From positions 1,696,001 to 1,760,000 of the forward strand of contig CAWCYD010000003.1 in NCBI GenBank assembly GCA_963799775.1: a DNA stretch of 64,000 nt, in the 5' to 3' direction. This document shows, piece by piece, positions 10,220 to 44,315 of this stretch; position 1 is the first letter of the stretch; each line of letters begins with the position of its first letter. The translations under genes were made by a program, and so were the position numbers. This DNA comes from an uncultured archaeon. Its GTDB lineage: Archaea; Thermoproteota; Nitrososphaeria; Nitrososphaerales; Gagatemarchaeaceae. The notes under the pieces are model-generated. The model saw only the letters and a program-made list of their open reading frames with translations, ran no database searches and was not told the DNA's origin.

Positions 10220-10600
10220 TTACTTGGTCGAGTGCCCCGCCGCGACCCTCCTGTACGCTGCGATGTAGTCCAGCGCGAACTTGTCGGCGTTCTTCTCCGT
10301 CCCCCGGTGGCGGCCGGCGAACTGGCGCAGGTGATGATAGAACTCGTGGAGCATGACGAACGGGTCGTAGAGATATTCCTGGCTCACGGCGAGTATCTCC
10401 TTCCTGTTGGCGGAGTAGACGGCGAGCACCCCTTTCGAGCGCCCCCTGACGACCCCGATGCCGAGCCTGGGCACCTCCACCCGGTAGTAGTCGGAGAGCA
10501 TCTTGATGGCCCGTCCGGTATCACGGTTGAGGATCGTCGCCACCACAGCTGTCTTGAAGTCATCGCCCGGCTGCCCTTGCCTCGCTTCGGTCGTCTCGCA
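10220..10600 (-). CDS. Hypothetical zincin-like protein (start approximate)
   Basis: LHEFYHH...E..AD.FA motif. Confidence 0.65.
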   Translation of the reverse strand, partial: CETTEARQGQPGDDFKTAVVATILNRDTGRAIKMLSDYYRVEVPRLGIGVVRGRSKGVLAVYSANRKEILAVSQEYLYDPFVMLHEFYHHLRQFAGRHRGTEKNADKFALDYIAAYRRVAAGHSTK

Positions 10601-11180: not shown

Positions 11181-12280
11181 TTGGGCGTTCCTGAGAAGAT
11201 AAAGAAGATCGAAGACGGACCTGCTGAAGACCCAGATCAACAAGCACACCGAGCGCCACATCGGCGTCCTGCGGGCGAAGCTCTCGAAGCTCAAGATGGA
11301 GCAGGAGGAGCAGCAATCCCGACGGTCGGGGAGCGCGGTCGGTTACGACGTCAAGAAGTCTGGAGACGGGACTGTCGTCCTCATCGGCCTGCCTAGCGTC
11401 GGCAAGTCGACCCTGCTCAACGTGCTTACAAACGCAAAGTCGAAGGTCGCCGCCTACCAGTTCACGACGCTCGACGTCGTTCCGGGGGTCCTTGAATACA
11501 ACGGGGCCAGGATACAGGTGCTCGACCTGCCCGGAATCATCCAAGGCGCGTCCTCAGGTAGGGGCCTGGGCAAGCGGGTCCTCGCGGTGGCGCGGAACGC
11601 CGACCTCATCATGTTCGTGATAGACGTCTTCCAGCCGGAGGCGCGCGCACTCCTCGAGAAGGAGCTCCGGCTGACCGGGATACGGGTCGACGATGGACCC
11701 TCCCAACGTCGTGATAGAGTCGACCACCACAGGCGGGATATCGGTGGTCTCCCAGGTCAAGCTCACCAAGATCACCGTGGAGATCGTGAAGGACATCCTG
11801 AGAGTCTACGGGATGAACAGCGCCCGGGTCGTCCTACGCCAGGATATCAGCGACGAGCAGCTCATCGACGTGATCCTAGGGACCAGAGTCTACATTCCGT
11901 CGCTGGTCGTCATGAACAAGATCGACCTCGTCAACGCAGGTTTCATCAACGAGGTGACGGCCAAGCTGGCCTACAAGTTCGTCCCGATCTCTGCGGAGAG
12001 CAACGTGAACATCGAGGCGCTGAAGCAGGAGATGTATCGGAGGCTGGACTTCATCAGGATATACATGCGGAGGAGGAGCGGCGAGACCGACTACAAGGAG
12101 CCGATGATCGTGAGGAACGGCTCGACGGTGCTCGAGGTGTGCGACAAGGTCCACCGCAAGATGAAGGACGACTTCCGCTACGCGCTCATCTGGGGGAAGA
12201 GCGTCAAGTTCGACGGGCAGCGCGTCGGAATCGGCCACCTGCTGATGGACGAGGACGTCCTCACGCTGGTAACAAAGTGA
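11181..12280 (+). CDS. DRG/OBG-family GTPase with TGS domain (frameshifts near 11215 and 11700)
   Basis: GLPSVGKS, YQFTT, DLPG, NKID, WGKSVKFDGQRVG. Confidence 0.93.
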
Positions 12281-27656: not shown

Positions 27657-28184
27657 TCAGACCAAGGCGGCGAGGACCAGTGACAGGCCCGAGATGACGA
27701 AGAGCCCGTTGAGGATCGGGTTGTCATAGCGCATGTGCGCGAGGGCGATGCGTCTCCTTCCAAAGAATATCCCGCCCTCTGTCAGCGCGTCGAGGAGCAG
27801 GTGGGAATACGCGAGGGTTGCGCCTAGTCCTACAGCGATGATGGCTTGAGACAGGCTCGTTTGCTGCCCGACGAGGAAGTCGTAGAGGTAAACAGAACCC
27901 AAGGCGACGGAAATGCCCCATATTGGTGCGGTGAAGACGGAGTGCGTCCAATAAGACCTGACGGCGTAGCCGTCTTTCGACCTGTGTCCCAGTATGTCGA
28001 TGAGCTTGTTGATCGAGACCGTCAGCCAGAAGACAAGGACGAGGCTAGGGAGAATCGGGAGTCGCCCGATCTGGCACGCGAGGTAGAGACCTAGCCCCAG
28101 AGAGAAGATGTCGTGGGTGACGGCCTTCACTGGAGAAGTGTTGTAGGTTTCGAGATTTAAGCCGCCATCTGCCCTGCGGGACAC
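27657..28184 (-). CDS. Membrane-bound metal-dependent hydrolase-like protein (DUF1286-like)
   Basis: THDIF, D.LGH, RS.WTHS, SHLLLDALTEGG. Confidence 0.75.
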   Translation of the reverse strand: MSRRADGGLNLETYNTSPVKAVTHDIFSLGLGLYLACQIGRLPILPSLVLVFWLTVSINKLIDILGHRSKDGYAVRSYWTHSVFTAPIWGISVALGSVYLYDFLVGQQTSLSQAIIAVGLGATLAYSHLLLDALTEGGIFFGRRRIALAHMRYDNPILNGLFVISGLSLVLAALV

Positions 28185-28212
28185 GATGGGATTCCGCGCA
28201 TGGAGATAGAGA

Positions 28213-28240
28213 GGGGCCGCGGGGGGGACTCGAACCCCGG
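28213..28240 (-). repeat. tRNA 3'-end-like fragment (T-arm + acceptor), copy 1
   Basis: Reverse complement CCGGGGTTCGAGTCCCCCCCGCGGCCCC; no D or anticodon arm. Confidence 0.7.
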
Positions 28241-28273
28241 CGATTTGACGTGGTACAGCGATGAATCCGGAAG

Positions 28274-28960
28274 CTAGTAGGTGAGATCTACGTATGAGCT
28301 CGAATAACTGCCACCCTCACCGCATCCATCGTTGACCCAAATTGTTCCGCTCCACGAGGGTGTTATACTTCCGGATGAATCACTTTGGGATATGGAGTCA
28401 AAATAAGTGGATCCGCTAGCGGGGTAATCTCCACATTCGTTATAGACGTTAAAATCCGCGGTCTCCAAGACGACATAACCCCAGTAAGGAAGGTTACTCG
28501 TATTGAAGCCGGCAGGACCGAAGGAGGCAGAGTAGTCGTAATCGCTATCATAGATGTTCGTGTCGTACGCGCATGTTATTGAATTGCAGCTAGTCTGAGT
28601 TATACTTCCATATACGGTGTCATACTCAGGAATACCGCATTGCGCCGTACCATAGTAGGCTTCACCCAAGTTCGAGTCTACAAACCAACTGTTGATGGCG
28701 TACGTTTGAATTCCCTGTCCATTGAAACAACCCGCAGTATTATCGTATGACGGCCCCCACTCCAACACGGGTTGCATCAGTCTTCCGTATCCCGTGCTGT
28801 TATCCATGATTCCAATCCATAAGAATATGGTCTGCCCGTCGTAGTCGCTTGGATAGGCGGGAGCCTCCCAGTTCGCTGAAAAGCCGGTCATATAATTAGA
28901 ACTGTAGTCCTCAGTTTGTTCAATCCATGTGGAGCCTGAAGGCCCCGTCCCCGGATGAAC
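28274..28960 (-). pseudogene. G1/A4 glutamic-peptidase-like secreted domain, 5'-truncated
   Basis: WIE..., FSANWEAP, FLWIGI, LMQPVLEWG, VVLET; frame is open upstream of the ATG but has no signal peptide. Confidence 0.55.
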
Positions 28961-29072
28961 GTATCACGAATTCATAGTTTCAAAATATTCTTTTTGCAAG
29001 AATGTACTGATTCGATTTCGTGTAACGATAATGGCTCAAGCAACGCATGCTTTTCTGCACTTGAGCAGATTT

Positions 29073-29540
29073 TCACGGAGGACACGTAGGAAGTGTAGAG
29101 ACTGTAGTTCGTGGGCTAACACAATAGGCCGTTGAGTTGTCGAACCAGACAGTGTACTGGATATTTGCCTGGCCTTGCTCCCCAACGTGCAAAGTCGCTG
29201 CATAATAGTATCTGTCTTGATACGCTAGAAGCGTGGCGTTTGATCGTGTGTTATTTGTATACAGTTCACAAGGAATTTTGAGTACTGTGCATGGCCAAGC
29301 CCCAGCAGTTCCAACCACGGTCGCATTCTGTTCTACTACTGTCCATGACGAGGAATTGCTCGTCCCAGTCGAAAGTTTAACGGTGTTACTCGTGTCTAGA
29401 CCGGACGATGCCACCTTGACATTACTCGAAAATCCAGACTCAATTACGAATCCGAATCCAAGCGTCGCGACCAAAGCAATCGTTGCCCCAATAATGATTT
29501 GCCTCTTATATTCGGACAACCCAATCCAACTGCTAATCAA
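29073..29540 (-). CDS. Membrane-anchored secreted protein with Cys-containing C-terminal module
   Basis: N-terminal TM, YTVWFDNST.YCVSP..TCP. Confidence 0.65.
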   Translation of the reverse strand: MISSWIGLSEYKRQIIIGATIALVATLGFGFVIESGFSSNVKVASSGLDTSNTVKLSTGTSNSSSWTVVEQNATVVGTAGAWPCTVLKIPCELYTNNTRSNATLLAYQDRYYYAATLHVGEQGQANIQYTVWFDNSTAYCVSPRTTVSTLPTCPP

Positions 29541-29607
29541 TTTCGAGCGATATAGCTCTATACATTAGCAATAAATTCCCTATAAAATTTTCGCGATCAT
29601 TTTCTTA

Positions 29608-29631
29608 GGGCCGGGGGGACTCGAACCCCGG
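29608..29631 (-). repeat. tRNA 3'-end-like fragment, copy 2
   Basis: Reverse complement CCGGGGTTCGAGTCCCCCCGGCCC; direct repeat of copy 1. Confidence 0.7.
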
Positions 29632-29685
29632 TCAAACCTAGTTACAATCTAAATATCGGCGCGAAAGACCCGTCGAAACCTTAGT

Positions 29686-29777
29686 GGCCCTGATAGTGCA
29701 GCCTGGTTAGCATAGAAGGCTGTGGCGGAGTAATCCGCAGATACCTTCCGACCCGCGTTCAAATCGCGGTCAGGGCC
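29686..29777 (+). tRNA. tRNA-His(GTG) with encoded G-1 and a 17-nt intron at 37/38 (29726-29742)
   Basis: Cloverleaf GCCCTGA/TCAGGGC, anticodon stem GAAGG/CCTTC, T-loop TTCAAAT, discriminator C. Confidence 0.93.
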
Positions 29778-30067
29778 CTCATCTCAACAATCAGCCCTTC
29801 GGCTTCACCTCGACCATTAGCGATTTCATCTCTCCGTTTTCGAGGGTCGAAAGGACGGCGCACCCAAATTCGGCCGCCCGTATACCAAAAATCCATCTTC
29901 AGTTTCCCAGTCATCTGCTCACCCAGTCGAACTATGGAGTCATTTCCCCCTTCGCCGGCTCGTTTTGGGTGTGCGTACTCCTGGGCGTTTCTAGACTCAG
30001 TACACGAACGAACGTGCGACCGGAATCTAGGTAAAATTGCCGCGCGGCAACATAAGAAAGTGACTTT

Positions 30068-31327
30068 CTATCTGACAATCTCAGAGCCGATTACGAGCAG
30101 CCACCCTGCGACGACCAGGTAGACGTCCCCATTCATAGTGTCAATCGAAGCTTCGAGATAGTTATGGTTAACGCCGGCCACAACTAAGATGGCTGTCGCC
30201 TCATAGGAATCTCCGATTATTATCGATGCAACGGAGCTATCATTGAAGCCAAACAAGTATAGGTTTCCCGAAACGGGATCGAATAATGGCAGTTGTCCAC
30301 CATGGCCCAGAGTTATTGTGGTTACGATAGAGTTCGTCACTCCCGATATGATGTAAATCGAGCCGTTTTTCAAATTAAGGCTAGATGCGTAAAGATCACC
30401 GTTAGTATAGTCTAGAACGGGCGTCGTGGGACCACGGCCGACACCCACTGTCGCGACGACGCTATTGTTCTTTCCATCAATGACCGAAATGTTGTCGCCC
30501 AGCAGCGGACCCTGGTCAGGGACGTAGATGTCCCCGTTAATGGGGTCAAAAAGCGGCGTCCATGGGAATGGGCCCACTGGCACAGTGGCTATCACGGTAC
30601 CTGCAAGTCCTGAAATCACGGAGACGGTATTACTAAACGGGTTGGAAACGTAGATGTCTCCGTTAATCGAGTCAAAAGCCGGAGTGACTGGATTATTGCC
30701 TACAGTTATCTCCGAGACTAACGAGTTTGTCGCCCCTGATATGACGGCGACAACATTCGATCCGTAAATGGGGACGTAGATGTCCCCGTTGGCAGGATCA
30801 AAGACTGGTGTGCGTGGACTCTCACCAACATAGATTGTGCCGATGACAGTGTTCGTATTGCCTGAAATGACTGAGACATTATCCATGCCTTGGTTCGAGA
30901 CATACAGGTCGCCGTTCATCGTGTCTAGTGCCGGCGTCGTAGCATTGCTACCCACAATCACGGTTGCGGCTAACGAGTTTGTGGCTCCCGAGATAACAAG
31001 GACTCTGCTGGATTGGTAATCAGATACATATATGTCTCCATTGAGAGGGTCAAAAAACGGTGGCTGCGGGTCAAGGCCCGCAGATATGTTAGCAATGACC
31101 GCCAAAGTCATTTGGGCGGTAGAATTCCCCGCAGATGATGTGTCCGATGCGAGTGTTTCTGTCAAAGTCGTCGTATTGTTATGATTCACGGTTACTGTGG
31201 CCCTGAACGAAGGCGCTGCCAGAAGAACAGATAGCGCGAGGCCGGCCGCTATGACACATGCCACCAATGCGTATGTAAAGCGCGAACTAGCAGAATGCGA
31301 TTGGCTTTGCAATTCGTCTTCAACCAA
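30068..31327 (-). CDS. YncE/YVTN-type beta-propeller repeat surface protein
   Basis: Repeats of P.FDP.NGDIYV...VSVISG.TN.V..TI.VG; N-terminal TM. Confidence 0.85.
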   Translation of the reverse strand: MVEDELQSQSHSASSRFTYALVACVIAAGLALSVLLAAPSFRATVTVNHNNTTTLTETLASDTSSAGNSTAQMTLAVIANISAGLDPQPPFFDPLNGDIYVSDYQSSRVLVISGATNSLAATVIVGSNATTPALDTMNGDLYVSNQGMDNVSVISGNTNTVIGTIYVGESPRTPVFDPANGDIYVPIYGSNVVAVISGATNSLVSEITVGNNPVTPAFDSINGDIYVSNPFSNTVSVISGLAGTVIATVPVGPFPWTPLFDPINGDIYVPDQGPLLGDNISVIDGKNNSVVATVGVGRGPTTPVLDYTNGDLYASSLNLKNGSIYIISGVTNSIVTTITLGHGGQLPLFDPVSGNLYLFGFNDSSVASIIIGDSYEATAILVVAGVNHNYLEASIDTMNGDVYLVVAGWLLVIGSEIVR

Positions 31328-31435
31328 TTAATCAGACAACGTGTCCCAAAAGCCATTAGTTTAAAACAGAAGCAAGCACCGTCAATGTGATGCTCTCCAT
31401 TTTATGATCTCGATGTCCATTGAATCGACTCCTTT

Positions 31436-33157
31436 CTAAGCGGTCTCCGTGAAATCCCAAATCCCAGAACCGAAACTGCATGAGCCAGTGCCAAGATTGC
31501 TTGACTCGCCGGTCGTGCTATACGTGGGACAAGTGTCTGGAATCAGAACGCCACTCGAGTCGTACATATTTCCATATATGGTCATACTGGTGCCCGAGTT
31601 CCAGACAGCTTCTGAGCCGCCCCCTGCTCCGAAGACATTGTACTCTTCTGATGTCCACTGATTAACTAGATTGTACCCAGAGGGGAACAGATTATCTGGT
31701 ATCGTGTTCTCCCAGCACTGCGAGCTGTCGCAAACATTCGCGAGATCAACATTACCGAGGCTCGAAACCCCCGCAGCGGCGGCGATGTAGAGAGAGCTGA
31801 AGTCTGACGGCGAGTTCGCTGGGGGAATCACTGTAGCCGGTGTGACATTCAACTTATATTCATAGGTGCCACAATTTCCGTTTCCAACTGAGGTCCAATC
31901 AGTTCCAAGGTTGCCGCAATTTCCTGAGCCGTAGTAATTCCCGTAGTTGATGACTTCGTCCTCTACATCGACGTATGCCGTACTTTCACCATAAATGCTC
32001 GTATAAACAAACTGCTCCCAACCGTAGCATGCGTTCATACCGGTTCCGCATATCCCCGAGATCAACCACCTATTGGAATTCAGTTGGATTGAATATGCGC
32101 AGTCTCCATATGTGTCGTCCTCTTCGCCAGTGCCTCCTGTGCAATCGTTGTTGATTCCACTTACTGTATCACCGCCTCCTGTTAGGAAGCTGTCCTCGGC
32201 GTGTGATATCAACGTTCCACTGCTTTCCTCTCCGGAGTAATCGCATGTTCCGGTGCTTGTCTCAGTGGCACAGCCACCGACCGGAGGACCAGGATTGTGA
32301 GGCCCGCCAAAGGGCTTGACACAAGCTTCTGCCTGCCACTTCACACTAGGATATGAAGCCTCGAAGCAACCCACCCCTCCCGCTCCAGTGGCGGCCACTT
32401 GATGCATCCAGATGTAGTTCGAACACTGCGACGCAATGTAGTTGGTATGCGTTGCTACCGAGCCGTCCTGGGTCATGACATCGCCAGTGATGTTCGCGCC
32501 GGTTCCCATCGTGATGCTGCCGACCGAGAGGATACTTCCCGCAAAATTGGTCTGCCTGCTCAGGGTAGCGGCGCCTCCGACCTGCCAGAAGACGTTGCAG
32601 CCGCTGCCACCGGTCATAATCACGGAGGAGCCACCCGAGGTGGTAAGCGAGCCCGCTACTTGGAAGATGAATAGGGCATTGACGTTGCCTTCAGGGTTGA
32701 GAGTGAGCGTCCCGCTCAGCGACGCCGCCGAAGAGTAGCAATAGACGCCCGGTGTGAGCGTGAGCCCTCCCAGGTTCTGGCCTGTCAGGTTTCCGGTGCA
32801 TGAATCGCTCGCAAGAGCGCTGTAGGCACTGGTGAGGTTGTCTTTGGCTTGAAGCGCGACTGAATCATCCTTGTATATGGTCCCCGTGACGACCCCAGGT
32901 GGAAATCCGACGACAACGGCGCTGGGATCGACTCCAAGGTTCCCGCTGATGTTGGAAGGGCCTGTATTGCTTACTGCCCCTGCAGAGAGAACCCCGAAGC
33001 CCGCTGCCATTCCTAGGCTAGGCGGCGACGATGGGCTCGTTGCTGCGGCGGGCGAAACATAACGCGTGAAAGAAGACAAAACAAGAATGACAACGATAAT
33101 GAGAGGTGAAATGTTCGTGCGCCGCCGACTCTCACCTTCCGAGGGTAACAGCTTCAA
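31436..33157 (-). CDS. Secreted DUF3494 ice-binding-like domain fused to a Cys-rich C-terminal domain
   Basis: FGVLSAGAVSNTG, LGGLTLTPGVY, FIFQV, NVFWQVG; then YSIQLNSN, GWEQFVY, EYNVFG, TGESSNL. Confidence 0.85.
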   Translation of the reverse strand: MKLLPSEGESRRRTNISPLIIVVILVLSSFTRYVSPAAATSPSSPPSLGMAAGFGVLSAGAVSNTGPSNISGNLGVDPSAVVVGFPPGVVTGTIYKDDSVALQAKDNLTSAYSALASDSCTGNLTGQNLGGLTLTPGVYCYSSAASLSGTLTLNPEGNVNALFIFQVAGSLTTSGGSSVIMTGGSGCNVFWQVGGAATLSRQTNFAGSILSVGSITMGTGANITGDVMTQDGSVATHTNYIASQCSNYIWMHQVAATGAGGVGCFEASYPSVKWQAEACVKPFGGPHNPGPPVGGCATETSTGTCDYSGEESSGTLISHAEDSFLTGGGDTVSGINNDCTGGTGEEDDTYGDCAYSIQLNSNRWLISGICGTGMNACYGWEQFVYTSIYGESTAYVDVEDEVINYGNYYGSGNCGNLGTDWTSVGNGNCGTYEYKLNVTPATVIPPANSPSDFSSLYIAAAAGVSSLGNVDLANVCDSSQCWENTIPDNLFPSGYNLVNQWTSEEYNVFGAGGGSEAVWNSGTSMTIYGNMYDSSGVLIPDTCPTYSTTGESSNLGTGSCSFGSGIWDFTETA

Positions 33158-33334
33158 CGCATATTAGACTTGGAACAAAATTGGGAAACCTAAATATAAA
33201 CATTGTACTATTCGCAACTTGTCGTCAATCCTTCTGGGTTTACGGGATTCATCCTTTTCACAGCAAGAACCGGGAAATTAGCGGATGCCTGGACAGGCCT
33301 AACTCGGGGCTCGTTGTTGCCTCCGTCAGACTCG

Positions 33335-34579
33335 TCAGGATTGCGGTCTAATCTGCGCCACCAACGATTTGATTTCGCTTCCATAGAGCACTGACAGCAC
33401 CGCGTATCCTACCTCCGCCTTGCGGTTGTACCCGAAGTCGACCCTCAGTTTCCTCGTCATCTGCTTCAGATGCCTTTGGATCTGGGAGTTGAGCCAAGAA
33501 TACCCATAATGCACCAGCAGTCGTGACTGGGCAATCGCCTTCCCGTCCCTGGTGAACAGGTCTTTCCCGCCTTTCGCAGGTTCCATTATCACGAAGTCGT
33601 CATGCCCAAATTTTCTTTGGAGAATCGTATACGCTATCTCTGAGCCAAGCCTTCCATGCTCGTAGTTGTTGCCATGCCTCAACATCGACTGCTCGAGAGG
33701 CCTGAGCGGCCCGATCCCCTCCACCAAGGGCAACCTATGCACACCATCGAGAAGGTATTTCTTTGGGCCTTCAGTGATCTCCCCTGAAGCATAGAGCGAG
33801 GACGGCTCCCTCTGGTAGATGACAGTGGTCGATGTGCCCTTGGTGTAGTTGTACACCAAGCGCAGCCTGAATCCATCGAACGAAAGATAGGCGACCCGGA
33901 AGAAGCACCGGGTTGCTACCTGCACCCCAAGCCACGCCCTCTTGTCTCCATCGTGGTAGAGCCGCATCAACCTGTCCATCGAGAACGCGTCCTTGACCCG
34001 GAATCCCGCGTAGATCGCGTCCGGCTGATATTCTAGGAGACCAAGCAGTTGTCCGTCCATAACGAACGGTGAGCCTTTGACCTCCGGCTCTTCCGCGATT
34101 GTCAAGGATACCTTATCCCCACTCCATTTCATCTCTATCTTCGCAAGGTTCGAGACCCAAGGTTTGGACATGTCGTTCGCGTATGTGATCGACGGGAAAC
34201 CGTCAAGAAAATCGGACAGAGTGTGTCTTCTCAAATCAATCGTGAAGACATCCCCCGGCTTGCCGATCCTCTTCGGCGCGGTCGGCACCCAGTTCTTGCC
34301 CCCGACGTAGCGGTGGAAGGCTATCGAGTCGGCCTCCTTGTAACTCACTTTCAGGAGCATGGGCTGGCCGACCTTGAACCCTGGCACCCTCGCCTCCAGG
34401 TGCGAAGCAGGGATGAACAACCGGCATGGCTTCTTCGTGCTGAGCAACAGCTGGTTCTCTGGGCTCAACTTCACCATGAGCTCGTTCCCTTCTCTATCGA
34501 GGCGCCGTTGGGAAATTATCTTGGAGAGAGATGTCGTCCCCCTCCTGAATTGGTCGACGGGTTGATGCATCTCTTTCAC
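33335..34579 (-). CDS. Hypothetical protein: AbrB-like N-terminal repeats + C-terminal restriction-endonuclease-fold domain
   Basis: HGRLGSEIA...GGKDL...AQSR; paralog of 42650-44053. Confidence 0.6.
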   Translation of the reverse strand: MKEMHQPVDQFRRGTTSLSKIISQRRLDREGNELMVKLSPENQLLLSTKKPCRLFIPASHLEARVPGFKVGQPMLLKVSYKEADSIAFHRYVGGKNWVPTAPKRIGKPGDVFTIDLRRHTLSDFLDGFPSITYANDMSKPWVSNLAKIEMKWSGDKVSLTIAEEPEVKGSPFVMDGQLLGLLEYQPDAIYAGFRVKDAFSMDRLMRLYHDGDKRAWLGVQVATRCFFRVAYLSFDGFRLRLVYNYTKGTSTTVIYQREPSSLYASGEITEGPKKYLLDGVHRLPLVEGIGPLRPLEQSMLRHGNNYEHGRLGSEIAYTILQRKFGHDDFVIMEPAKGGKDLFTRDGKAIAQSRLLVHYGYSWLNSQIQRHLKQMTRKLRVDFGYNRKAEVGYAVLSVLYGSEIKSLVAQIRPQS

Positions 34580-34990
34580 CCGTTGATCGGCTTCTCGCGC
34601 GTTCTCAGCTTGATTCGCAACTCCTCAGGGGACCGAGCGAAGAAGTCCGCCCTGCTGAGGGACCTTCCTCAGCGCAGTCGTCACTGAGTCCTGGTCCTCG
34701 TTGGGCGCCTCGACCAGAGAGCCGCATCTTATCCTCGGAAGCGTCCTCTTGAGGAGGCCGAACCTGTAGTCCATGAAGGCACCTCTCCTCCTCACCTCGG
34801 ACATGGCCTGGCCCTTCTTCTTCTCGCACCTCGTGCATTCCAAGACTATCCCGGCCCCGACGAAGACCAGGAAATCTACGGAGATCCTGTCCCCGTCAGG
34901 AAAACCGAAGACGTAGTGCTCCCGGGACGGAAGTCTCTCCTCCACCAGGACGTCCCTTACCTGCGCCTCCTGAGCCGTCAGGGGCGTCAT
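34576..34990 (-). CDS. Small Vsr/DUF559-like PD-(D/E)XK nuclease (frameshift near 34660; corrected stop overlaps the next GTG)
   Basis: T.QE..V...L...ISVDFLV....VLECT. Confidence 0.6.
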
Positions 34991-35013
34991 TGCATGAGTC
35001 CTTCTAAGCCACT

Positions 35014-35073
35014 CGATTGACGTTTGCCGCTACACCGTGGATATAGGTGCTGGGCGTATTTAAACACCCATAG
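35014..35073 (-). repeat. Conserved 60-nt palindromic element, copy A
   Basis: 53/60 identity by hand alignment to 42589-42647 in inverted orientation. Confidence 0.9.
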
Positions 35074-35213
35074 AACAAGGGTTTATTCTAGCTCGGATTG
35101 TCCAAAGGAGTCGAATTCTAGACATGCGGGGAACCGGTGATTAGAGCGTGGCGCTTATTTGGCCACCTCACGTATTGGGAGTGAGGTAGCCGGGCTCGAC
35201 AAAAGGGCTCATC

Positions 35214-37742
35214 ATGACGGCGCAGGGGTCGAAAGAAGACCTCTTGGCCAGGCTCGTTCACCCTGTCTTACCCGGACTGCAGCTCAATCGCATACTCTGC
35301 ATCTCGGATGACGAAGGTCTCAACTCTGAAATCAAGCAACAACTGAATGATTTCGGGTACAATCCCCGATTTGTTTCCTATTCTGGCCTGGGGACATTCG
35401 ATTCGAGGCTGGTACGCGGCAAGTCTATCGTGGCGATCTCCCCTACCGTGGCCATCAACGAGTCGCGCGCGAAGGGGATTGTGGATGGGGGCCTGGTAAG
35501 GCTGATGAGCGGCATGAACCTGCAGAGACATCCTAGTGTTTCGCGAGGTGGAGACGCCCTTTGTCATCAGTAGGGTCCAGTCCATCGAGCAACTTGTTCA
35601 TTGGATTTCTAAAGGAATTGATTCCCAGCCCGGGTTCTGGCTTGAAGAACTAGTATTGACACTCGTATACAAGAGGGGTTGCACTATGGTCGGAATACGG
35701 CGGCTCGTTGAAAATTCAGTCTGGGGACAACTCTTCCAAGACGATGGCAACTCAGTCGAGCAGGCCCGTGCAGAGCTCTTGCGGGAAGACCTGGTCACCG
35801 AAAAGAGCGGATACCTAGTTTGCAATGAGTTTGGACATGAGGTCGTTGAAGAAAACACTCCATTCGACACAGTCGATCGACCTGAGTCACGTGAACACCA
35901 TGAACCGGATGAATCGGATGGTCGAGAGGAATGGGGACCCGATGACGACTCCCGAGAGCGCAATTCCTACCTCACCGAAGTTGTGTTCGAAATCATAGAG
36001 AGATTTGGGTGGGTCACGCCAAACGACTTGGCCGCCGCTGCAGAGCGAGCCAGGGTGATGCCAGAGCGGTCGCTGGGAAAATCACGAAGGTTCCTGGAGA
36101 AGCTCGTCGCCAAAGGTGCTCTCGTCAAATCAAATTACAGCACCGGGAGGGGACGACCAAAGTCAGTCTATCGCGGGCGAGACTCGAGGACTGCAGATAT
36201 CTTGGAGAACACCTGCGGTGAGTGTGTCTTCTACTCCCGTGTTACGCGCCGATGCAGGCTGTGGTGGGCGCTATCGAGATTCAATGCGCCGGATGTCTAT
36301 GCAAGAGAGGAAGGATTGTCAACTGTCGCAAAAGACAAACTCCATCACTCCAACAAGAGGGTAGGTTCATTCAGCCACCTCCTGTGAAGAGTTCACGCCA
36401 AAGAAGAAAGACTATCCTCTGTTGAAGGCGCGTGACAAATGTGTTTCCTGCGGCCAAGAGATCGATTCACCCATCGCAAAGACCGTAAAATGCCCTACAT
36501 GCTTGACCGTGTACAAGCCTCTCGCCACGAAAATCCTCGTCCACTACGACTACGAACAGCTCTTCAAGAAACGTTACACAAAGTTAGCAGGCGTGCCGCC
36601 TCCCAGACAAGCACTAGTCCTGACCGAGCAAGAGGTTCATGGTAAGACGGACATCCGTGACACCATCGTTCTCTATCCCAATGAGAATGTTCGTCTTTCT
36701 GAGGAAGGCATGAAGGTGGAGCGAAGAGAGCACGAGTGGACCTTGGAGCCATACTCGAGGATCTACCAGGTAATCGACTATGGCTCGCTAGACGAGAAGG
36801 CTTGCTCGCAGCTTAGAGCCAAGGGGCTTCAGGTCGTGCAGACACATTTGCGGGAACTTCCGCAGCAACGCTTTCCCTTGTATCCATCCCGCGATTTCGT
36901 GGACAAACTACGCCTGCTAGAGCAAAAGTCACCCCTCAGAACAAGGCTCCTCGAGTCGATGATGCTCAGCACGGTCATCGCCACAAGGAGGATAGCGAGT
37001 CGCGGAGGTTCTCCACTCCAGGTCCATCATCAATCGCCAACTCCTCGAGTTCTCACGAATGAGAGCGGATAATGGGATGACACTGAGCAGGGCTCTTGCT
37101 TACGAGGCACGCGTCAACGCCTTCTACTGGAGCGTCTACAAGACGATGCTAAGGGTCTCTGGGCTCCAGTTCGAGAGCAGGGTGAGAGATAGGTTCGTTA
37201 GGGAGATTGTCTCCAGTATCCGGGCCAGAGCGAGGGGATACTCGCCCGCGAACGCAGCGATAAACTATCTGCATCAGAGGAGGCTGCTCTTGTGTCGACT
37301 AGCGAACGCTCGGACAGCTATAGGGTGGGTCGGCTGTGAAGGGGTTCTACATGTTGCGAAGAGAGAACCCAGCATAGGCCTGATGTTGGACCTTAGTGAT
37401 TCATTCCGGCTCGCCGACAGGGAGAGTTTCCTTAACTCCACTATGCGTATGGAGTTGTCAAGGGACGACTTCGTTGCTCGTCCGGGAAAGCACAGGGTCT
37501 GGTTCTTTCATCCGACGCAGGATGCGATTGGGAAGCTTGACTTGTGTGGGTCGAATGCGGATCAGTTTCGCGTTCAGCATGCAGGCAAAGAGATGGCTCT
37601 GACAGGAGCTTATGATCAGTTCGTGGCTTCTTTCGTAGACGCCGTGGACGCGATGGATTTAGAGCGCCTTCACACGTTCGTCTATGGAAATGCTGAGGAT
37701 TTGAAGTGGCTCGAGACGAAAGGCTTGGTTACCGTCTTGTGA
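35214..37742 (+). CDS. cas1: Solo Cas1 fusion of about 840 aa: Hel308-like WH + wHTH + two zinc fingers + Cas1 (frameshifts near 35525, 36370, 37020)
   Basis: Cas1 beta domain (IVLYP..VRL..GMKV..IYQVIDYG...L.AKGLQV) and alpha domain (YEAR...YW, F.SR, PANAAINY, G.LH, LDLSDSFR). Confidence 0.8.
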
Positions 37743-37942
37743 GTCGATCCACAGCCTCCCATGTTAACCAAGATGCGCCACTCTTTTGGAGTGTCTACAC
37801 CACCGCGGCCAAACGTTCCGGCCCGAGCCTCCTAGAGAATATAAAGAAATGGCCTGCGCGGGGTGGCTCTTCTACTCGCTAACTAGGTCGAGGTCAACAG
37901 CTCATCTATGCTTAAATTCGGTCCGAGCATTATCGTTATGCT

Positions 37943-38293: not shown

Positions 38294-38767
38294 CTATTCG
38301 TTGGAGTAGCAGAAGTACGGGTATCCGCCGTTGACCTTCTGGACGGCCCACTCCACCACCTTGTCGGAGACCTCTCTCCACTTCCTGTCCCAGTCGATGT
38401 CGGCGACGACCAGCTCCTTCTCCTCCTTCCCCTGGACCTCCAGCTTCTCCCAGATTGGCGTGCCGTAGAACGGCTTCACTATCCTCGCGTTCCACTTGTT
38501 GCAAGTCGGTCTGGTGCCGTGCTGGTTGTAGAACTTGCAGGAGAGGCACCATTTCGAGAGCCAGATTATGTTCTTGGAGAACTTGACGGACTTGCCTATC
38601 TCCTCGAGGAGCCGCTCCGACTCCTTCCGGATCATCTGGGCGAGCTCGTCCTGCCCCTGCTTGGTGTTCATGTAGTACTCGGGGTCTTTGGCGAGAGCCT
38701 GCTGCCAAGTGAGCGGCTGCTCCTGTTGCTGCCTCTGCTGCTGCTCCTCGGGGTCGTCTTCGAGCAA
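38294..38767 (-). CDS. Conserved hypothetical protein, putative zinc-binding
   Basis: WCLSCKFY..C...YFCY; host codon usage. Confidence 0.7.
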   Translation of the reverse strand: MLEDDPEEQQQRQQQEQPLTWQQALAKDPEYYMNTKQGQDELAQMIRKESERLLEEIGKSVKFSKNIIWLSKWCLSCKFYNQHGTRPTCNKWNARIVKPFYGTPIWEKLEVQGKEEKELVVADIDWDRKWREVSDKVVEWAVQKVNGGYPYFCYSNE

Positions 38768-38978: not shown

Positions 38979-40200
38979 CTAGCCCCAGAGCAGGGCGGGC
39001 TCGGCTTGGCTGACCTCTCGCAGCTCTCTTACGACGCGGTCGCGTAGAGCTTCCACGTTCTCCATTTCGAGCACCAATTTGCCCTTGGCCATTATCTGCT
39101 TGAGCATGGGCCTGGAGCCCTTGGGCGCGCCCGACCCGCGGAACGACACTGTGTCCTTGTACCCGTTGGCTCTGTGCACGTCCTTCCTCCCTCCCAGGCC
39201 TCCCCTCTTCGCCCTGAGGTAGGTCTTCCCCTTCTCACGAACCTCCACTATCTTCGCGCTAAAGTCGATGCTCGGCGGGTACGCGACCGCCGTGCCTACT
39301 CCGAATCCGTCCACGATGTCCTTGAGCCGGATCACGTCTTCCTCTGTCAGTCTCCCGGAGACGAATATCTTAACGAACCCGCCGCCTCTGACCTTCAGTT
39401 CCCATTTCACCTCCTCGATGATCTGGCGGAAGTCCCCCCTCCTTGATGAGGGGGTGTCAATCCTCACGCCCCAGAGGTGCTTCCCAAGCGTCTCGAACGC
39501 CTTGATCGCTTCGGCCTTCTCGTCCCAGAACGTGTCGATAAGGGCAGTGCGCTTGACCTCCTTGGGCATGGTCTCGTCGTATAGCCTCCACGCTTTCTCC
39601 TGGTCGCCGATCACCTGCACCAGCGCGTGCGGCATCGTCCCAGAGGGTTCCACGCCTAGCAGCTTCCCTCCCAGCACATTGGAGACACCATCGAAACCCG
39701 CCAAGTAGCAGCCTCTCTCGATGAGAGGTGCGAGCGCGGGATGTACCCGCCTGGTCCCGAAGCTCACGACCTGCCTATCCCCGGCGGCGACCCTGAACCT
39801 GGCCGCTTTGGTGGAGATGCTGCTCGATGATGAGAGAAGGCCCAGCATGGGGTTCTCGTATTCGACGAAGTCTCGATATCTTCCTGAGATCGTTATCACG
39901 GGCTCGTAGAGCGAGCTCCGACCGTCGGCGACGAAGATCGACCCCTCGTCGAATGCCCAGACGTCGAGCGGCAGGCCTTCCAGAAGCTTTGCGACCTCGT
40001 AGACGCCGCTGAGGACGCCCCACCTCCCGTCCTCCGGCAGGTCCCCGCGCGAAGACCTCCATCACGACCTCCGAGTCGATGTGGTGCTTTGCAATGACCT
40101 CCTTCGTGTTGAGGAAGTAGATGTCGGTCGTCTTGGCGTTCTTTATCTCTCGCTCGTTCGCCAGCCAGAAGAGCCGGTCGCGGAGGGTCCTCTTCGCCAT
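38979..40200 (-). CDS. pncB: Nicotinate phosphoribosyltransferase (frameshift near 40040)
   Basis: TTDIYF, SFGTRRVHP, GTMPHAL, ALIDTF, GVRIDTP, GFGVGT. Confidence 0.92.
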
Positions 40201-40264
40201 GACGTGTGTGTCACCGGCCCTTAGAAAAACTATTTCAACTTCGACAGGCTGCGAAGCGAGCCTC

Positions 40265-41043
40265 TTGCTCTCTGCAGAACTCGACCTTTCGCACGCGAAA
40301 CGCGCCATCGTCTCCTTCATCAAACGAAAGGTCCAGGAGAGCGAAGCAGACGGCGCGGTGCTTGGTTTGAGCGGCGGGATTGACTCGGCGGTCACCGCGT
40401 ACCTCACCGTGGAGGCGTTGGGGAGCAGGCGGGTCAATGGCCTGATAATGCCGGACCTCAGGGCCACACCGGATCAAGACGTAAAGGACGCGAAGCTCGT
40501 GGCGAGCGAGCTGTGCGTCGAGACGAAGGAGATTGACATCGCTCCGATACACAAGGCGTACCTGAAGACGGTGGAGCCGAACAGGCTCGCAGAGGGCAAC
40601 CTGAGGGCGCGGATCAGGATGTCGCTCCTCTACTACCATGCGAACCTCTCGAACAGGTTGGTTACAGGCACGGGAGACCGCTCAGAGCTCCTGCTGGGTT
40701 ACTTCACGAAATTTGGCGACGGAGGTGTGGACATCCTCCCCCATCGCGGACCTCTACAAGACAGAGGTCAGGAGGCTGGGCGAGGTCATTGGGATTAACA
40801 GGCGGATAGTCGCAAAGCGCAGCAGCCCGAGGCTGTGGCCCGGGCACATCGCGGAGAACGAGATTGGGATGAGCTACGAGACAATCGACAGGCTCTTCAA
40901 GCTCAGGTTCGAGGAGGGGCTAGAGGTCCCCGGACATCGCAAAGAGCTTGAAGCTGAATCGCGCGAAGGTCGAGATGATTCTCGCAAAGTATGAGGCCTC
41001 AGAGCACAAGAGGCGCATGCCAGAAATCTGCAAGTTGCGCTGA
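40265..41043 (+). CDS. nadE: NH3-dependent NAD+ synthetase (frameshifts near 40740 and 40930)
   Basis: GLSGGIDS, GNLRARIRM, GYFTKFGDG, LYKTEV, SEHKR. Confidence 0.93.
40994..41043 (+). repeat. nadE 3'-end direct repeat, copy 1 (currently in the gene)
   Basis: 44/50 identical to 42219-42268. Confidence 0.9.
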
Positions 41044-44053: not shown

Positions 44054-44069
44054 CTTTGTGAATTGTGAA

Positions 44070-44161
44070 TGGACCGGAAGGGATTTGAACCCTTGACCTA
44101 AGGGAGTTTTTAGCTCTCTCCTGCGTGCGAGGCAGGCATTCTACCACTGAACTACCGGCCC
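44070..44161 (-). tRNA. tRNA-Ala(CGC) with a 20-nt non-canonical intron at about 45/46 (44098-44117)
   Basis: GGGCCGG/CCGGTCC acceptor with G3:U70, CCTGC-CTCGCAC-GCAGG anticodon arm, relaxed BHB motif. Confidence 0.9.
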
Positions 44162-44315
44162 ACCAATTGGAGCCATAAAGCCCCCGTTATTAAGAGCCTA
44201 GTCCTTCAGGTGCTGTCCAGGCTTCGTTTGGTCTAGCGTGAGATGCACTCGGTACCAAACCACAACTCGACAGTGCCACAGTTTGAGTTGAATTATAGGC
44301 GACCATCAGTCTATT

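What the first reader, a model, noticed from the sequence alone, without database searches (positions are those of the whole stretch)
35214..37742. Giant solo Cas1 fused to helicase-derived winged helix, wHTH and two zinc fingers
Seen: four consecutive ORFs join with single frameshifts into about 840 aa. The parts are a Hel308/Ski2-like degenerate C-terminal and WH segment (WLEELVLTLV...ELLREDLV...CNEFG); an acidic linker; a wHTH (FLEKLVAKG...GRGRPKSVY); CGEC..C..C; CVSC..CPTC; then both Cas1 domains with putative catalytic E (YEAR), H (VLH) and D (LDLSDSFR). Knowledge: Cas1 outside CRISPR loci is known as casposase (with PolB and TIRs) and as a few solo clades. No Cas2, array or PolB is visible here. 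Inference: an architecture I do not recognise, possibly a site-directed integrase or a repurposed DNA-processing enzyme.
Basis: partly seen in the sequence, partly recalled or inferred. Interest (0 to 1): 0.9.

Follow-up and report, generated by a model that had tools for sequence, protein, structure and literature searches.

The report
Giant Cas1 fusion splitting tRNA genes
A real, roughly 840-residue archaeal protein joins half of a helicase, DNA-binding modules and a Cas1 integrase domain, and it sits at the very edge of a DNA insertion that splits the host's histidine tRNA gene and carries its own replacement copy, so it looks like a new kind of Cas1-driven mobile element.

Summary
Four ORFs (35214-37742, +) are collinear pieces of one ~840-aa protein; intact 820-870-aa orthologs exist. 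The three +1 breaks are probably assembly indels: 21 of 82 conserved genes in this assembly are frame-broken. The architecture is a RecA2+winged-helix module of Hel308/Ski2/Lhr-type helicases (no RecA1), an acidic linker, a putative wHTH, eight invariant Cys, then a very divergent Cas1 with invariant E/H/D. No Cas2, CRISPR array or nearby PolB was found.

New here:
- A PD-(D/E)xK-fold gene (34625-34990, -) is its divergent partner in 16 of 17 loci.
- The gene ends 2 nt from the boundary of a 9.5-kb insertion (28241-37744) that splits a tRNA-His gene.
- That tRNA-His gene is intact at the same site in four sister genomes.
- The insertion carries its own tRNA-His (29687-29778).
- A paralogous element in a sister genome splits and replaces a tRNA-Thr in the same way.
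- A third subfamily occupies the tRNA-His site in the opposite orientation.
- No TIRs or TSDs were found.

Best reading (about 0.5): the integrase of a PolB-less, tRNA-replacing mobile element. No activity was shown.

The parts
35214..37742 (+). c0: gene for the ~840-aa helicase-remnant/wHTH/Zn/Cas1 fusion. It is read in four frame pieces, with +1 shifts near 35510, 36368 and 37024.
35214..35860 (+). N-terminal RecA2-like alpha/beta domain plus winged helix, as in Hel308/Ski2/Lhr/PolQ helicases. There is no RecA1. The end coordinate is approximate.
35966..36171 (+). Putative wHTH that follows an acidic linker (about 35860-35965). Coordinates are approximate.
   Evidence: Only a weak Pfam AbiEi_4 hit, E 0.018. 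Conserved GRGRP motif in the alignment. Not folded.
36214..36502 (+). Two Cys clusters: CxxC...C...C and CxxC...CxxC (a zinc ribbon). Coordinates are approximate and the stretch spans the second frame break.
   Evidence: Eight invariant Cys in 29 homologs. Weak zinc-ribbon hits: RpoP-type E 0.0024, HVO_2753 E 0.0025.
36530..37739 (+). Cas1-like region: N-terminal beta domain, catalytic helical domain with E/H/D/D, and a ~90-aa C-terminal extension. The start coordinate is approximate.
   Evidence: Pfam PF01867: 24.9 bits on ORF4 and 29.7 bits over 2-263/283 in the paralog. PADLOC Cas1 22.8-23.8 bits. PDB 4n06 Cas1 E 0.0025. Invariant E/H/D/D.
34625..34990 (-). c1: small PD-(D/E)xK-fold protein, the divergent partner of c0. 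The copy here lacks the usual N-terminus and has a divergent C-terminal tail.
33335..34579 (-). c50: 414-aa protein of unknown family, downstream of c1. The same gene follows c1 in two other tRNA-His elements.
   Evidence: No hit in Pfam, the ESM Atlas, PDB sequences or PADLOC.
29687..29778 (+). Element-borne tRNA-His(GUG) with a 17-nt intron. By ARAGORN it is the only tRNA-His(GUG) gene in the assembly.
28241..37744 (.). 9,504-bp insertion relative to sister genomes. In order it holds a nested 1.4-kb segment, a tRNA 3' fragment, tRNA-His', two secreted or repeat-protein genes, c50, c1 and c0.
   Evidence: Synteny and empty sites in four sister genomes. GC 0.50-0.55 against about 0.60 in the flanks.
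37745..37810 (-). 5' fragment of the resident tRNA-His: G-1, acceptor, D arm with its intron, anticodon arm and 3 nt of the canonical intron. It begins 2 nt after the c0 stop codon.
28205..28240 (-). 3' fragment of the resident tRNA-His: T arm, acceptor 3' strand and discriminator.
29605..29631 (-). Second tRNA 3' fragment. Its 22-nt stretch at 29610-29631 repeats 28219-28240 at 95% identity, and the two copies flank a 1.4-kb nested segment.

Best explanation
The locus encodes one ~840-aa protein, called c0 here. It belongs to a lineage-restricted archaeal family found in soil Nitrososphaerales/Thaumarchaeota MAGs.

Domain order: the RecA2+WH half of a Hel308/Ski2/Lhr-type helicase, a wHTH, two zinc modules, then a highly divergent Cas1 domain with an intact catalytic E/H/D/D set.

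The three +1 frame breaks in this copy are most likely assembly indel errors.

Proposed role (inferred, not shown): c0 is the integrase of a PolB-less integrative element.
- The core of the element is c0, a divergently transcribed PD-(D/E)xK nuclease-fold protein (c1), an accessory protein (c50), a tRNA gene and variable cargo.
- The DNA-binding modules would recognise a tRNA gene around the anticodon loop or intron up to the T arm.
- The Cas1 domain would join the element there, with c1 processing DNA ends.
- The resident tRNA gene is destroyed.
- The element supplies a sequence-diverged tRNA of the same identity, so the host comes to depend on the element.
For: Shown:
- Intact 820-870-aa orthologs exist.
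- The window copy keeps 50 of 51 invariant and 46 of 50 near-invariant residues, has 0 stops, and gives a crude pN/pS of 0.36.
- 21 of 82 conserved ORFs in this assembly are frame-broken, about 0.26 breaks per kb. These include NadE and NAPRTase next door.
- The same tRNA-His is intact between the same flanking genes in four sister genomes. In the window it is split by 9.5 kb, with the c0 stop codon 2 nt from the junction.
- A different c0 subfamily occupies the same tRNA-His in another genome in the opposite orientation. Again the c0 3' end is about 20 nt from the tRNA remnant.
- A paralogous element in a sister genome splits a tRNA-Thr(UGU), with c0 2 nt from the 5' fragment. It carries its own Thr-like tRNA. 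Intact tRNA-Thr 'empty sites' exist in two genomes.
- All three tRNA-His elements carry their own tRNA-His, with an acceptor stem unlike the resident one.
- In two metagenome contigs the c0 ORF runs into the antisense of the tRNA-His 5' fragment.
- T-arm remnants lie 22-29 nt after the c0 stop in three more metagenome contigs.
- No tyrosine or serine recombinase family was hit among the 11 insertion ORFs that I scanned.
- The family is multi-copy, patchy and leaves degenerate remnants: 12 of 41 genomes overall, 11 of 24 in its own family and 0 of 16 in other families of the order.

Background from papers: casposases are Cas1-family integrases that target tRNA T-loop regions (passages of PMC9939771).
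Against: - No terminal inverted repeats. The best inverted matches in the terminal 120 nt are reached by 53, 10 and 187 of 200 shuffles. There is also no target-site duplication. Instead, 13-27 nt of target are missing. That differs from known Cas1 or casposase integration.
- Most loci show no tRNA remnant by my simple tests. In 58 of 65 metagenome loci with a stop codon and at least 40 nt downstream, none was found within 120 nt of the c0 stop.
- Subfamily-2 copies sit in conserved synteny in several genomes with no tRNA found nearby.
- Cas1 homology rests on weak profile scores of 23-30 bits. A Cas1-only profile (A4) hit no PDB sequence. The Cas1 part was not folded.
- The three breaks in 2.5 kb exceed the genome average. 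My own arithmetic gives 0.65 expected and a Poisson P(>=3) of about 0.03.
- No public read bridged a junction.
- No activity, excision product or expression was observed.
Confidence: 0.5

Rival explanations
1. c0-c1(-c50) is cargo, for example a defence or DNA-repair module: a helicase-derived sensor plus a PD-(D/E)xK nuclease, loosely like Hachiman HamAB. It would sit in genomic islands that another, unidentified recombinase inserts into tRNA genes.
For: - tRNA genes are common hot spots for integrase-driven elements. A Caldiarchaeum case of a tRNA fragment plus a new tRNA flanking a recombinase-bearing insertion is in print (abstract of PMC3293823).
- c1 has a nuclease fold.
- Subfamily-2 copies lie in conserved synteny without tRNAs.
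- A nested 1.4-kb segment flanked by T-arm repeats shows that other events hit this site.
Against: - The c0 3' end lies within about 2-20 nt of the tRNA remnant in three separate insertions, at two tRNAs and in both orientations. Random cargo would rarely do that.
- No recombinase family was hit in the insertion ORFs scanned.
- PADLOC gives only weak Cas1 hits for c0 and nothing for c1 or c50.
- The Cas1 catalytic residues are invariant.
Confidence: 0.22
2. The element spreads by homing. A sequence-specific nuclease (c1, c50 or, in subfamily 2, the LAGLIDADG-like c14) cuts the intact tRNA gene. The element is then copied in by recombination through the retained tRNA halves. c0 would help in DNA processing rather than in strand transfer.
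For: - Target bases are deleted rather than duplicated, and there are no TIRs.
- The junction lies at the canonical tRNA intron site.
- The replacement tRNA differs in the acceptor stem and T arm, as expected for a cut-resistant copy.
- c14 has a weak PADLOC 'homing endonuclease' hit, E 0.0055.
Against: - The c14 assignment is weak: PDB I-HjeMI E 1.3.
- c50 has no detectable family.
- The invariant Cas1 catalytic set argues that c0 itself is an active nuclease or integrase.
- Insertion in opposite orientation by another subfamily at the same tRNA is not what simple homing of one allele predicts.
Confidence: 0.15
3. The window copy is a true, recently inactivated pseudogene. The three frameshifts are real. 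The element is a fossil kept only because it holds the sole tRNA-His.
For: - Three breaks in 2.5 kb against a genome mean of 0.26 per kb.
- The partner c1 here lacks its N-terminus and has a divergent tail.
- One invariant Gly is changed to Ala.
- The resident tRNA 3' fragment is eroded by a nested insertion.
- Degenerate copies with many stops exist in sister genomes.
Against: - There are no stop codons or deletions within the pieces.
- 50 of 51 invariant residues are kept.
- Housekeeping genes next door carry the same single-base breaks.
- 21 of 82 conserved genes are broken genome-wide, and one gene carries four breaks.
- The short contigs that match (up to 308 nt) show no differences where they cover the gene, but none bridges a junction.
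Confidence: 0.25

Closest known systems
Casposases and casposons (Cas1-solo group 2)
   Same: A Cas1-family protein with the full catalytic E/H/D/D set, not linked to CRISPR, encoded at the end of an integrated element. The targets are tRNA genes near the T arm. The distribution is patchy and multi-copy, and Thaumarchaeota are among the hosts (passages of PMC4046053 and PMC9939771).
   Different: - No PolB in or near the element.
- No TIRs and no TSDs; target bases are lost instead.
- A ~450-aa N-terminal extension (helicase half, wHTH, zinc modules) instead of a small protein with a C-terminal HTH.
- The insertion destroys the tRNA and brings a replacement copy.
- The sequence is so divergent that a family profile finds only 117 proteins in 1.84 billion, and the Cas1-only profile finds no solved structure, casposase included; the full-length profile found only Cas1 4n06, E 0.0025.
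CRISPR adaptation Cas1 (with Cas2)
   Same: Pfam Cas_Cas1 scores above its cut-off. The best solved relative by sequence is Archaeoglobus fulgidus Cas1 (4n06, E 0.0025). The two alignments place the catalytic Glu, His and Asp residues in register.
   Different: No Cas2 and no array in the genome. Cas2 was found in 1 of 31 genomes of the family searched, and that genome has no c0 hit. One subfamily lacks the Cas1 N-terminal beta domain altogether.
Hel308 / Ski2-like / Lhr / PolQ superfamily 2 helicases
   Different: No RecA1 and no DEAD or Helicase_C profile hit in this family. It therefore cannot be an ATP-driven helicase on its own.
tRNA gene disruption by an inserted element in Caldiarchaeum subterraneum (Sugahara et al. 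2012, PMC3293823; abstract read)
   Same: A 5' fragment of one tRNA and a second complete tRNA of the same identity flank an inserted, repeated element. The authors proposed this as a route to tRNA introns and split tRNAs.
   Different: That element is 1.8 kb and encodes a 'DNA recombinase', according to the abstract. Here the candidate enzyme is a Cas1 fusion with a nuclease-fold partner.
Diverged Cas1 homologs of Asgard archaea (Makarova et al. 2020, CRISPR J; not held here, known only from passages of PMC8730458 and from recall)
   Same: Extremely diverged Cas1 homologs, some thought to belong to unknown mobile elements.
   Different: I could not read that paper. So I cannot say whether a helicase-Cas1 fusion, this Thaumarchaeota family or a tRNA-replacing element is described there.

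Membership tests
Cas1 superfamily (Pfam PF01867) | Profile match above the curated cut-off | tested here: met
   - 24.9 bits for window ORF4 and 29.7 bits for the paralog, against a cut-off of 22.3.
- Distant relative P0120 scores 48.4 bits.
- NCBIfam TIGR00287 scores 24.5 bits, below its 71.7 cut-off.
Cas1 superfamily (Pfam PF01867) | Catalytic Glu, His, Asp, Asp (E141, H208, D218, D221 in E. coli numbering, from PMC4046053) | tested here: met
   E650, H732 and D745 are invariant in 29 homologs and D748 is kept in at least 90%. All four are invariant in 15 sequences of three subfamilies. They lie in register with the catalytic motifs of Cas1 4n06 in the alignment. All are present in the window copy.
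Cas1 superfamily (Pfam PF01867) | Two-domain Cas1 fold (beta N-domain plus helical catalytic domain) | not tested
The Pfam match spans both domains in the paralog.
Casposon | Family B DNA polymerase encoded in the element | tested here: not met
   PF03175 gives no hit in the genome. The only PF00136 locus is at C3:450-454 kb, about 1.28 Mb away.
Casposon | Terminal inverted repeats | tested here: not met
   For three elements the best inverted match in the terminal 120 nt is no better than shuffles: 53, 10 and 187 of 200 shuffles reach it.
Casposon | Target-site duplication of about 14-15 bp | tested here: not met
   The junctions show loss of about 13-27 target bases. Only a shared CGAT is seen, in one element.
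Casposon | Site-specific insertion, often at tRNA genes | tested here: met
   tRNA-His is occupied in two orientations and tRNA-Thr is occupied once. Empty sites exist in sister genomes.
CRISPR-Cas adaptation module | Cas2 partner and a CRISPR array | tested here: not met
   No PF09827 hit at E <= 1. No exact 20-mer repeated at least 3 times at 45-100 nt spacing in the assembly (81.7% complete). One tandem repeat in the window, which is not an array.
Cas1-solo group 1 (Methanomicrobiales) | Incomplete catalytic residue set, vertical inheritance (per PMC4046053) | tested here: not met
   The catalytic set is complete and invariant here. The distribution is patchy and multi-copy.
Hel308/Ski2-like helicase | Two RecA domains with ATP-binding motifs | tested here: not met
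   Only the RecA2+WH part is present. No DEAD or Helicase_C Pfam hit in the window pieces or the paralog.
Hachiman (HamA nuclease + HamB helicase) | Match to the HamA and HamB family models | tested here: inconclusive
PD-(D/E)xK nucleases (for c1) | Restriction-endonuclease-like fold with conserved acidic residues | tested here: met

The most novel reading that the evidence does not exclude
A Cas1-family integrase descended from a helicase-Cas1 fusion drives a class of archaeal mobile elements that are not self-synthesizing and have no TIRs. They insert at the anticodon-loop/intron position of a tRNA gene and kill the resident gene. They leave the cell dependent on the element's own, sequence-shifted tRNA, which amounts to addiction by tRNA replacement. 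Repeated rounds would turn over tRNA genes. They could also be a natural source of tRNA introns, tRNA fragments and split tRNA genes in archaea.
Probability: 0.35. Interest if true: 0.9.

Novelty: new variant of a known kind. Interest (0 to 1): 0.82.

Why it matters
Cas1 is known from only two settings: CRISPR spacer capture and casposon transposition. A third, structurally different setting would widen what Cas1 chemistry is used for. That setting has a helicase-derived, multi-module DNA-binding N-terminus, a dedicated nuclease-fold partner, no polymerase, no inverted repeats and a target deletion instead of a duplication. It would also bear on how the CRISPR adaptation machine arose.

The element appears to destroy an essential single-copy tRNA gene and replace it with its own version. 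That is an unusual way for a selfish element to make itself indispensable. It gives a concrete, testable case for the old idea that mobile elements created tRNA introns and split tRNAs.

A naturally site-specific Cas1 integrase with modular DNA-binding domains is also a candidate for targeted-insertion tools.

Tried and rejected
Work that led nowhere, or was inconclusive:
- Public reads. One soil run holds exact low-depth contigs over parts of the gene, but none bridges any of the three junctions. The frameshift question therefore stays open by this route. A related strain's contig lacks one base at 40046, where NAPRTase is broken.
- Complex prediction of c0 (residues 20-866) with c1 gave no verdict, score 0.00. 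This is no evidence either way.
- c50 has no hit in Pfam, the ESM Atlas, PDB sequences or PADLOC. It is unrelated to c14 by hhalign, probability 0.2%.
- c14 as a LAGLIDADG enzyme is a motif resemblance that I recalled. Its only support is PDB I-HjeMI at E 1.3 and PADLOC HEase at E 0.0055. It is not established.
- The c1 profile against PDB sequences gave nothing meaningful.
- The Cas1-only profile A4 against PDB sequences gave no hit at E <= 1.
- Viral contigs: 14 pattern matches, none a relative.
- A 25-nt pattern of the tRNA-Thr 5' fragment found only itself in 23 genomes. Synteny was used instead.
- Rfam at E <= 0.5 did not detect the tRNA half-fragments. ARAGORN miscalls multi-intron tRNAs: Thr as Gln and His as Ser.
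- A Cas1 phylogeny against casposases was not attempted. Canonical Cas1 and casposase sequences were not in hand, and similarity is near the detection limit.
- Casposon and CRISPR-adaptation readings were rejected (see Membership tests).
- Literature. Four searches bear on whether this family is in print, and they found no description of it. Two further searches covered thaumarchaeal mobile elements and split tRNAs; one mistyped search failed. I read passages of PMC4046053, PMC8730458, PMC9939771 and PMC6563490, and the abstract of PMC3293823. Makarova et al. 2020 (PMC7307682) is not held. Supplements were not opened. Either source may describe relatives.
Full report
THE OBSERVATION

On the + strand, four ORFs lie at 35214-35573, 35536-36387, 36422-37072 and 37059-37742, in frames 0, 1, 2 and 0. 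The open frames overlap at each junction.

An intact 861-aa homolog (P0002) aligns to the window in four collinear tblastn pieces:
- q13-117 to 35193-35507
- q122-401 to 35521-36366
- q403-623 to 36371-37024
- q624-857 to 37026-37727

These cover 840 of 861 positions with no in-frame stop. Each junction is explained by one extra base, in ATGAACC, TCATTCA and GTCCATC.

ARE THE BREAKS REAL?

I compared 82 conserved ORFs of at least 250 aa from a one-contig sister genome (G007; 400 kb sampled at even steps) with this assembly.
- 21 of the 82 are split across frames here. That is 24 frame changes in 31,168 aligned codons, about 0.26 per kb, of which 16 are +1.
- One gene carries four breaks.
- NadE (40121-40991) and the nicotinate phosphoribosyltransferase (38982-40299, -), right next to the finding, are broken in the same way.

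The window copy keeps 50 of 51 invariant and 46 of 50 near-invariant residues of the family. A crude pN/pS against an intact relative is 0.36.

Public contigs from one soil run match parts of the gene exactly, but none bridges a junction.

My judgement is that assembly indels are the more likely cause, at about 0.7. Three breaks in 2.5 kb is above the mean: 0.65 are expected, and a Poisson P(>=3) is about 0.03 (my arithmetic). A recent pseudogene is therefore not excluded.

ANATOMY OF THE PROTEIN

N-terminus.
- The first 251 aa of an intact ortholog fold with confidence (pLDDT 88.8, pTM 0.85).
- A Foldseek-independent search of 48,161 chains puts Ski2/Hel308/Lhr-type helicases on top:

|---|---|---|
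| PolQ helicase domain | 12.1 | 207 |
| Hel308 | 11.5 | 221 |
| Slh1 | 11.3 | 217 |
| Lhr | 11.0 | 223 |
| HamB | 10.4 | 223 |

- Foldseek agrees: Hel308 E 3e-4.
- The match covers RecA2 plus the winged helix. There is no RecA1 and no DEAD or Helicase_C profile hit.

Middle region.
- An acidic linker follows, then a putative wHTH. The wHTH has only a weak AbiEi_4 hit (E 0.018) and was not folded.
- Eight invariant cysteines lie in two clusters. They give weak zinc-ribbon hits.

C-terminal half.
- It hits Pfam Cas_Cas1 above the cut-off: 24.9 bits for window ORF4, and 29.7 bits over profile positions 2-263 of 283 for the unbroken paralog.
- PADLOC Cas1 models score 22.8-23.8 bits.
- The best solved relative by sequence is A. 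fulgidus Cas1 4n06 (E 0.0025), with the Glu, His and Asp motifs in register.
- The putative catalytic residues E650, H732 and D745 are invariant in 29 homologs and D748 is kept in at least 90%. All four are invariant in 15 sequences from three subfamilies.

THE FAMILY

- 39 proteins were found in the word-indexed search. Most are 820-870 aa, and a few are named 'Thaumarchaeota archaeon' or 'Nitrososphaerales archaeon'.
- 16 loci were found in species-representative genomes. All are MAGs titled Nitrososphaerales, Thaumarchaeota, Nitrososphaerota, Nitrosopumilales, Ca. Gagatemarchaeum or simply 'uncultured archaeon'.
- 72 metagenome loci were found.
- Among 41 related genomes the gene is in 12. 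That is 11 of 24 in its own family and 0 of 16 in other families of the order. It is often present in several copies, and some copies are full of stops.
- This genome has three copies:
  - the window copy;
  - copy B at C3:1828836-1831425, with one break in the linker;
  - an intact 920-aa subfamily-2 copy at C3:1761972-1764680, 2 kb beyond the window.
- A third subfamily lacks the Cas1 beta domain.
- A profile of the Cas1 part finds only 117 proteins at E <= 0.001 among 1.84 billion representatives. Canonical Cas1 proteins are therefore out of its reach.
- The distant hits are 1000-2082 aa. P0111 and P0120 carry complete DEAD + Helicase_C N-termini. P0120 also hits Pfam Cas1 at 48.4 bits.
- The window's family therefore looks like a reduced form of a wider helicase-Cas1 fusion group.

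NOT CRISPR, NOT A CASPOSON

In the whole assembly (81.7% complete) I found no Cas2, no protein-primed PolB and no CRISPR-like array. The single PolB locus lies about 1.28 Mb away. Cas2 occurs in 1 of 31 genomes of the family searched, and that genome has no c0 hit.

CONSERVED PARTNER GENES

I clustered the ORFs of 17 loci: three in this genome and 14 in relatives.
- A ~145-aa gene, c1, lies directly upstream of c0 and divergent from it in 16 of the 17 loci, across subfamilies. In the window it is at 34625-34990 (-).
- c1 folds with pLDDT 85.
- Downstream of c1 the gene varies:
  - c50, with no detectable family (window 33335-34579);
  - c14 in subfamily 2, with a LAGLIDADG-like motif that is only weakly supported;
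  - an inserted TnpB gene in copy B.

THE INSERTION IN tRNA-His

Empty sites. In four sister genomes (G011, G018, G007, G009) an intact, intron-bearing tRNA-His(GUG) lies between the same flanking genes as in the window. Those genes are the homolog of 27657-28184 (found in three of the four; not in G018) and the homologs of 38294-38767 and NAPRTase.

Occupied site in the window.
- The same tRNA is split. Its 3' part lies at 28205-28240 (-) and its 5' part at 37745-37810 (-).
- 9,504 bp lie between the two parts.
- The 5' part runs through the anticodon loop and 3 nt of the canonical intron.
- It starts 2 nt after the c0 stop codon.

Contents of the insertion.
- Its GC is 0.50-0.55, against about 0.60 outside.
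- It carries its own tRNA-His(GUG) at 29687-29778, with G-1 and C73.
- By ARAGORN this is the only tRNA-His(GUG) in the assembly.

Other occupied tRNA-His sites.
- The orthologous insertion in G022 has the compact order c0, c1, c50, tRNA-His.
- In G010 a c0 of another subfamily (35% identical) occupies the same tRNA in the opposite orientation. It has c1, c50 and its own tRNA-His. Its stop codon lies about 20 nt from the tRNA's variable loop and T arm.
- The three element-borne tRNA-His genes share an acceptor stem (GCCCTGA or GCCCTAG) unlike the resident GCCGCGG.
- In two metagenome contigs the c0 ORF reads on into the antisense of the tRNA-His 5' fragment. The junction there lies 8 nt into the intron.

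tRNA-His status across the genus. In 23 genomes, the resident 5' 16-mer is present in 10 and the intact-gene pattern in 7. Of the other three:
- G000 is split;
- G010 is split;
- G014 has the 5' fragment directly beside another complete tRNA-His.

G021 has a c0 remnant, part of c50 and a tRNA-His side by side.

A SECOND TARGET: tRNA-Thr

The G011 ortholog of copy B lies in a 6.6-kb insertion (L034 5353-11911).
- It splits a tRNA-Thr(UGU). The 3' fragment is at 5332-5352.
- The 5' fragment begins 2 nt after the c0 stop, and its acceptor/D-stem 12-mer lies at 11932-11943.
- It carries a complete, intron-bearing tRNA with the same acceptor stem and anticodon arm at 7460-7579.
- G018 and G007 have the intact tRNA-Thr between the same flanks.

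Three more metagenome contigs have a T arm 22-29 nt after the c0 stop. One of them has a Thr-like acceptor.

WHAT DOES NOT FIT

- No terminal inverted repeats. The terminal 120-nt inverted matches are reached by 53, 10 and 187 of 200 shuffles.
- No target duplication. Instead 13-27 target bases are missing.
- 58 of 65 metagenome loci with a stop codon and at least 40 nt downstream show no tRNA remnant within 120 nt by my simple motif tests.
- Subfamily-2 copies lie in conserved synteny with no tRNA found.
- No recombinase family was hit among the 11 insertion ORFs I scanned, but not every ORF was scanned.
- The c0-c1 complex prediction gave no verdict.

READING

The c0 3' end lies within about 2-20 nt of the tRNA remnant in three separate insertions, at two tRNAs and in both orientations. 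It also has an invariant Cas1 catalytic set and several DNA-binding modules.

From this, the best-supported explanation is that c0 is the integrase of a new PolB-less element that disrupts and replaces tRNA genes. I put this at about 0.5.

The rivals are:
- cargo of an island moved by another enzyme (0.22);
- nuclease-driven homing (0.15);
- independently of these, a dead copy in this genome (0.25).

IN PRINT

- Casposons and the two Cas1-solo groups are described in PMC4046053 and PMC9939771 (passages read).
- The 2019 survey of thaumarchaeal integrated elements lists only casposon and CRISPR Cas1 in the passages I read (PMC6563490).
- A tRNA fragment plus a new tRNA around a recombinase-bearing insertion is reported for Caldiarchaeum (abstract of PMC3293823).
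[quoted passage not shown] The primary paper is not held.
- Four searches that bear on this point found no description of this fusion or of Cas1-linked tRNA replacement; two further searches concerned thaumarchaeal mobile elements and split tRNAs.
- Supplements and non-held papers could still hold one.

Noticed in passing
window 38982-40299 (-) and 40121-40991 (+): The nicotinate phosphoribosyltransferase and NAD synthetase genes are each split by a single frame change. Genome-wide, 21 of 82 conserved ORFs are frame-broken, so the assembly carries pervasive indel errors.
   Followed up: yes
window 28219-28240 and 29610-29631: A 22-nt direct repeat (95% identical) that is a tRNA T-arm/acceptor 3' fragment flanks a 1.4-kb segment holding two small ORFs: 28274-28891 with no Pfam family, and 29073-29540 with only a sub-threshold Tudor_3 match. 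It looks like a nested second insertion at the same hot spot.
   Followed up: partly
window 30068-31327 (-) and 31436-33157 (-): These are cargo genes of the insertion. One is a 419-aa protein built from six ~126-nt tandem units. The other is a 573-aa secreted protein with an Ice_binding-like domain (E 2.5e-49). Both lie in low-GC DNA.
   Followed up: no
G000:C3:1761972-1764680 (-), 2 kb beyond the window's end: A third, intact 920-aa paralog of subfamily 2, 64% identical to P0035. It has its own c1 and a c14 gene with two LAGLIDADG-like repeats, and it lies in synteny conserved across several genomes.
   Followed up: partly
G000:C3:1828836-1831425 (loci L001, L002): Copy B of the fusion has a single frame break in the acidic linker. 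A TnpB-like IS gene is inserted between its c1 and its element-borne tRNA.
   Followed up: partly
proteins P0111 (1346 aa), P0120 (2082 aa), P0073 (1166 aa): These are distant relatives of the Cas1 part. P0111 and P0120 carry full DEAD + Helicase_C N-termini, and P0120 and P0073 hit Pfam Cas1. They point to a wider group of giant helicase-Cas1 fusions of unknown host.
   Followed up: partly
loci L045, L052, L053, L058, L059, L060: A third subfamily keeps the zinc ribbon and the Cas1 catalytic domain, but a short acidic stretch replaces the Cas1 N-terminal beta domain.
   Followed up: no
window 44069-44162 (-): A tRNA-Ala(CGC) of 94 nt with an insertion after the anticodon arm. The resident tRNA-His and tRNA-Thr genes of this genus carry one or two introns at canonical and D-loop or T-loop positions, which ARAGORN and Rfam often miss or miscall.
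   Followed up: partly
L072 (G014:C4) 10227-10333: A 13-nt 5' fragment of the resident-type tRNA-His lies 18 nt upstream of a complete, intron-less tRNA-His. No c0 lies within about 8-10 kb. This may be the scar of an element that was later lost.
   Followed up: no
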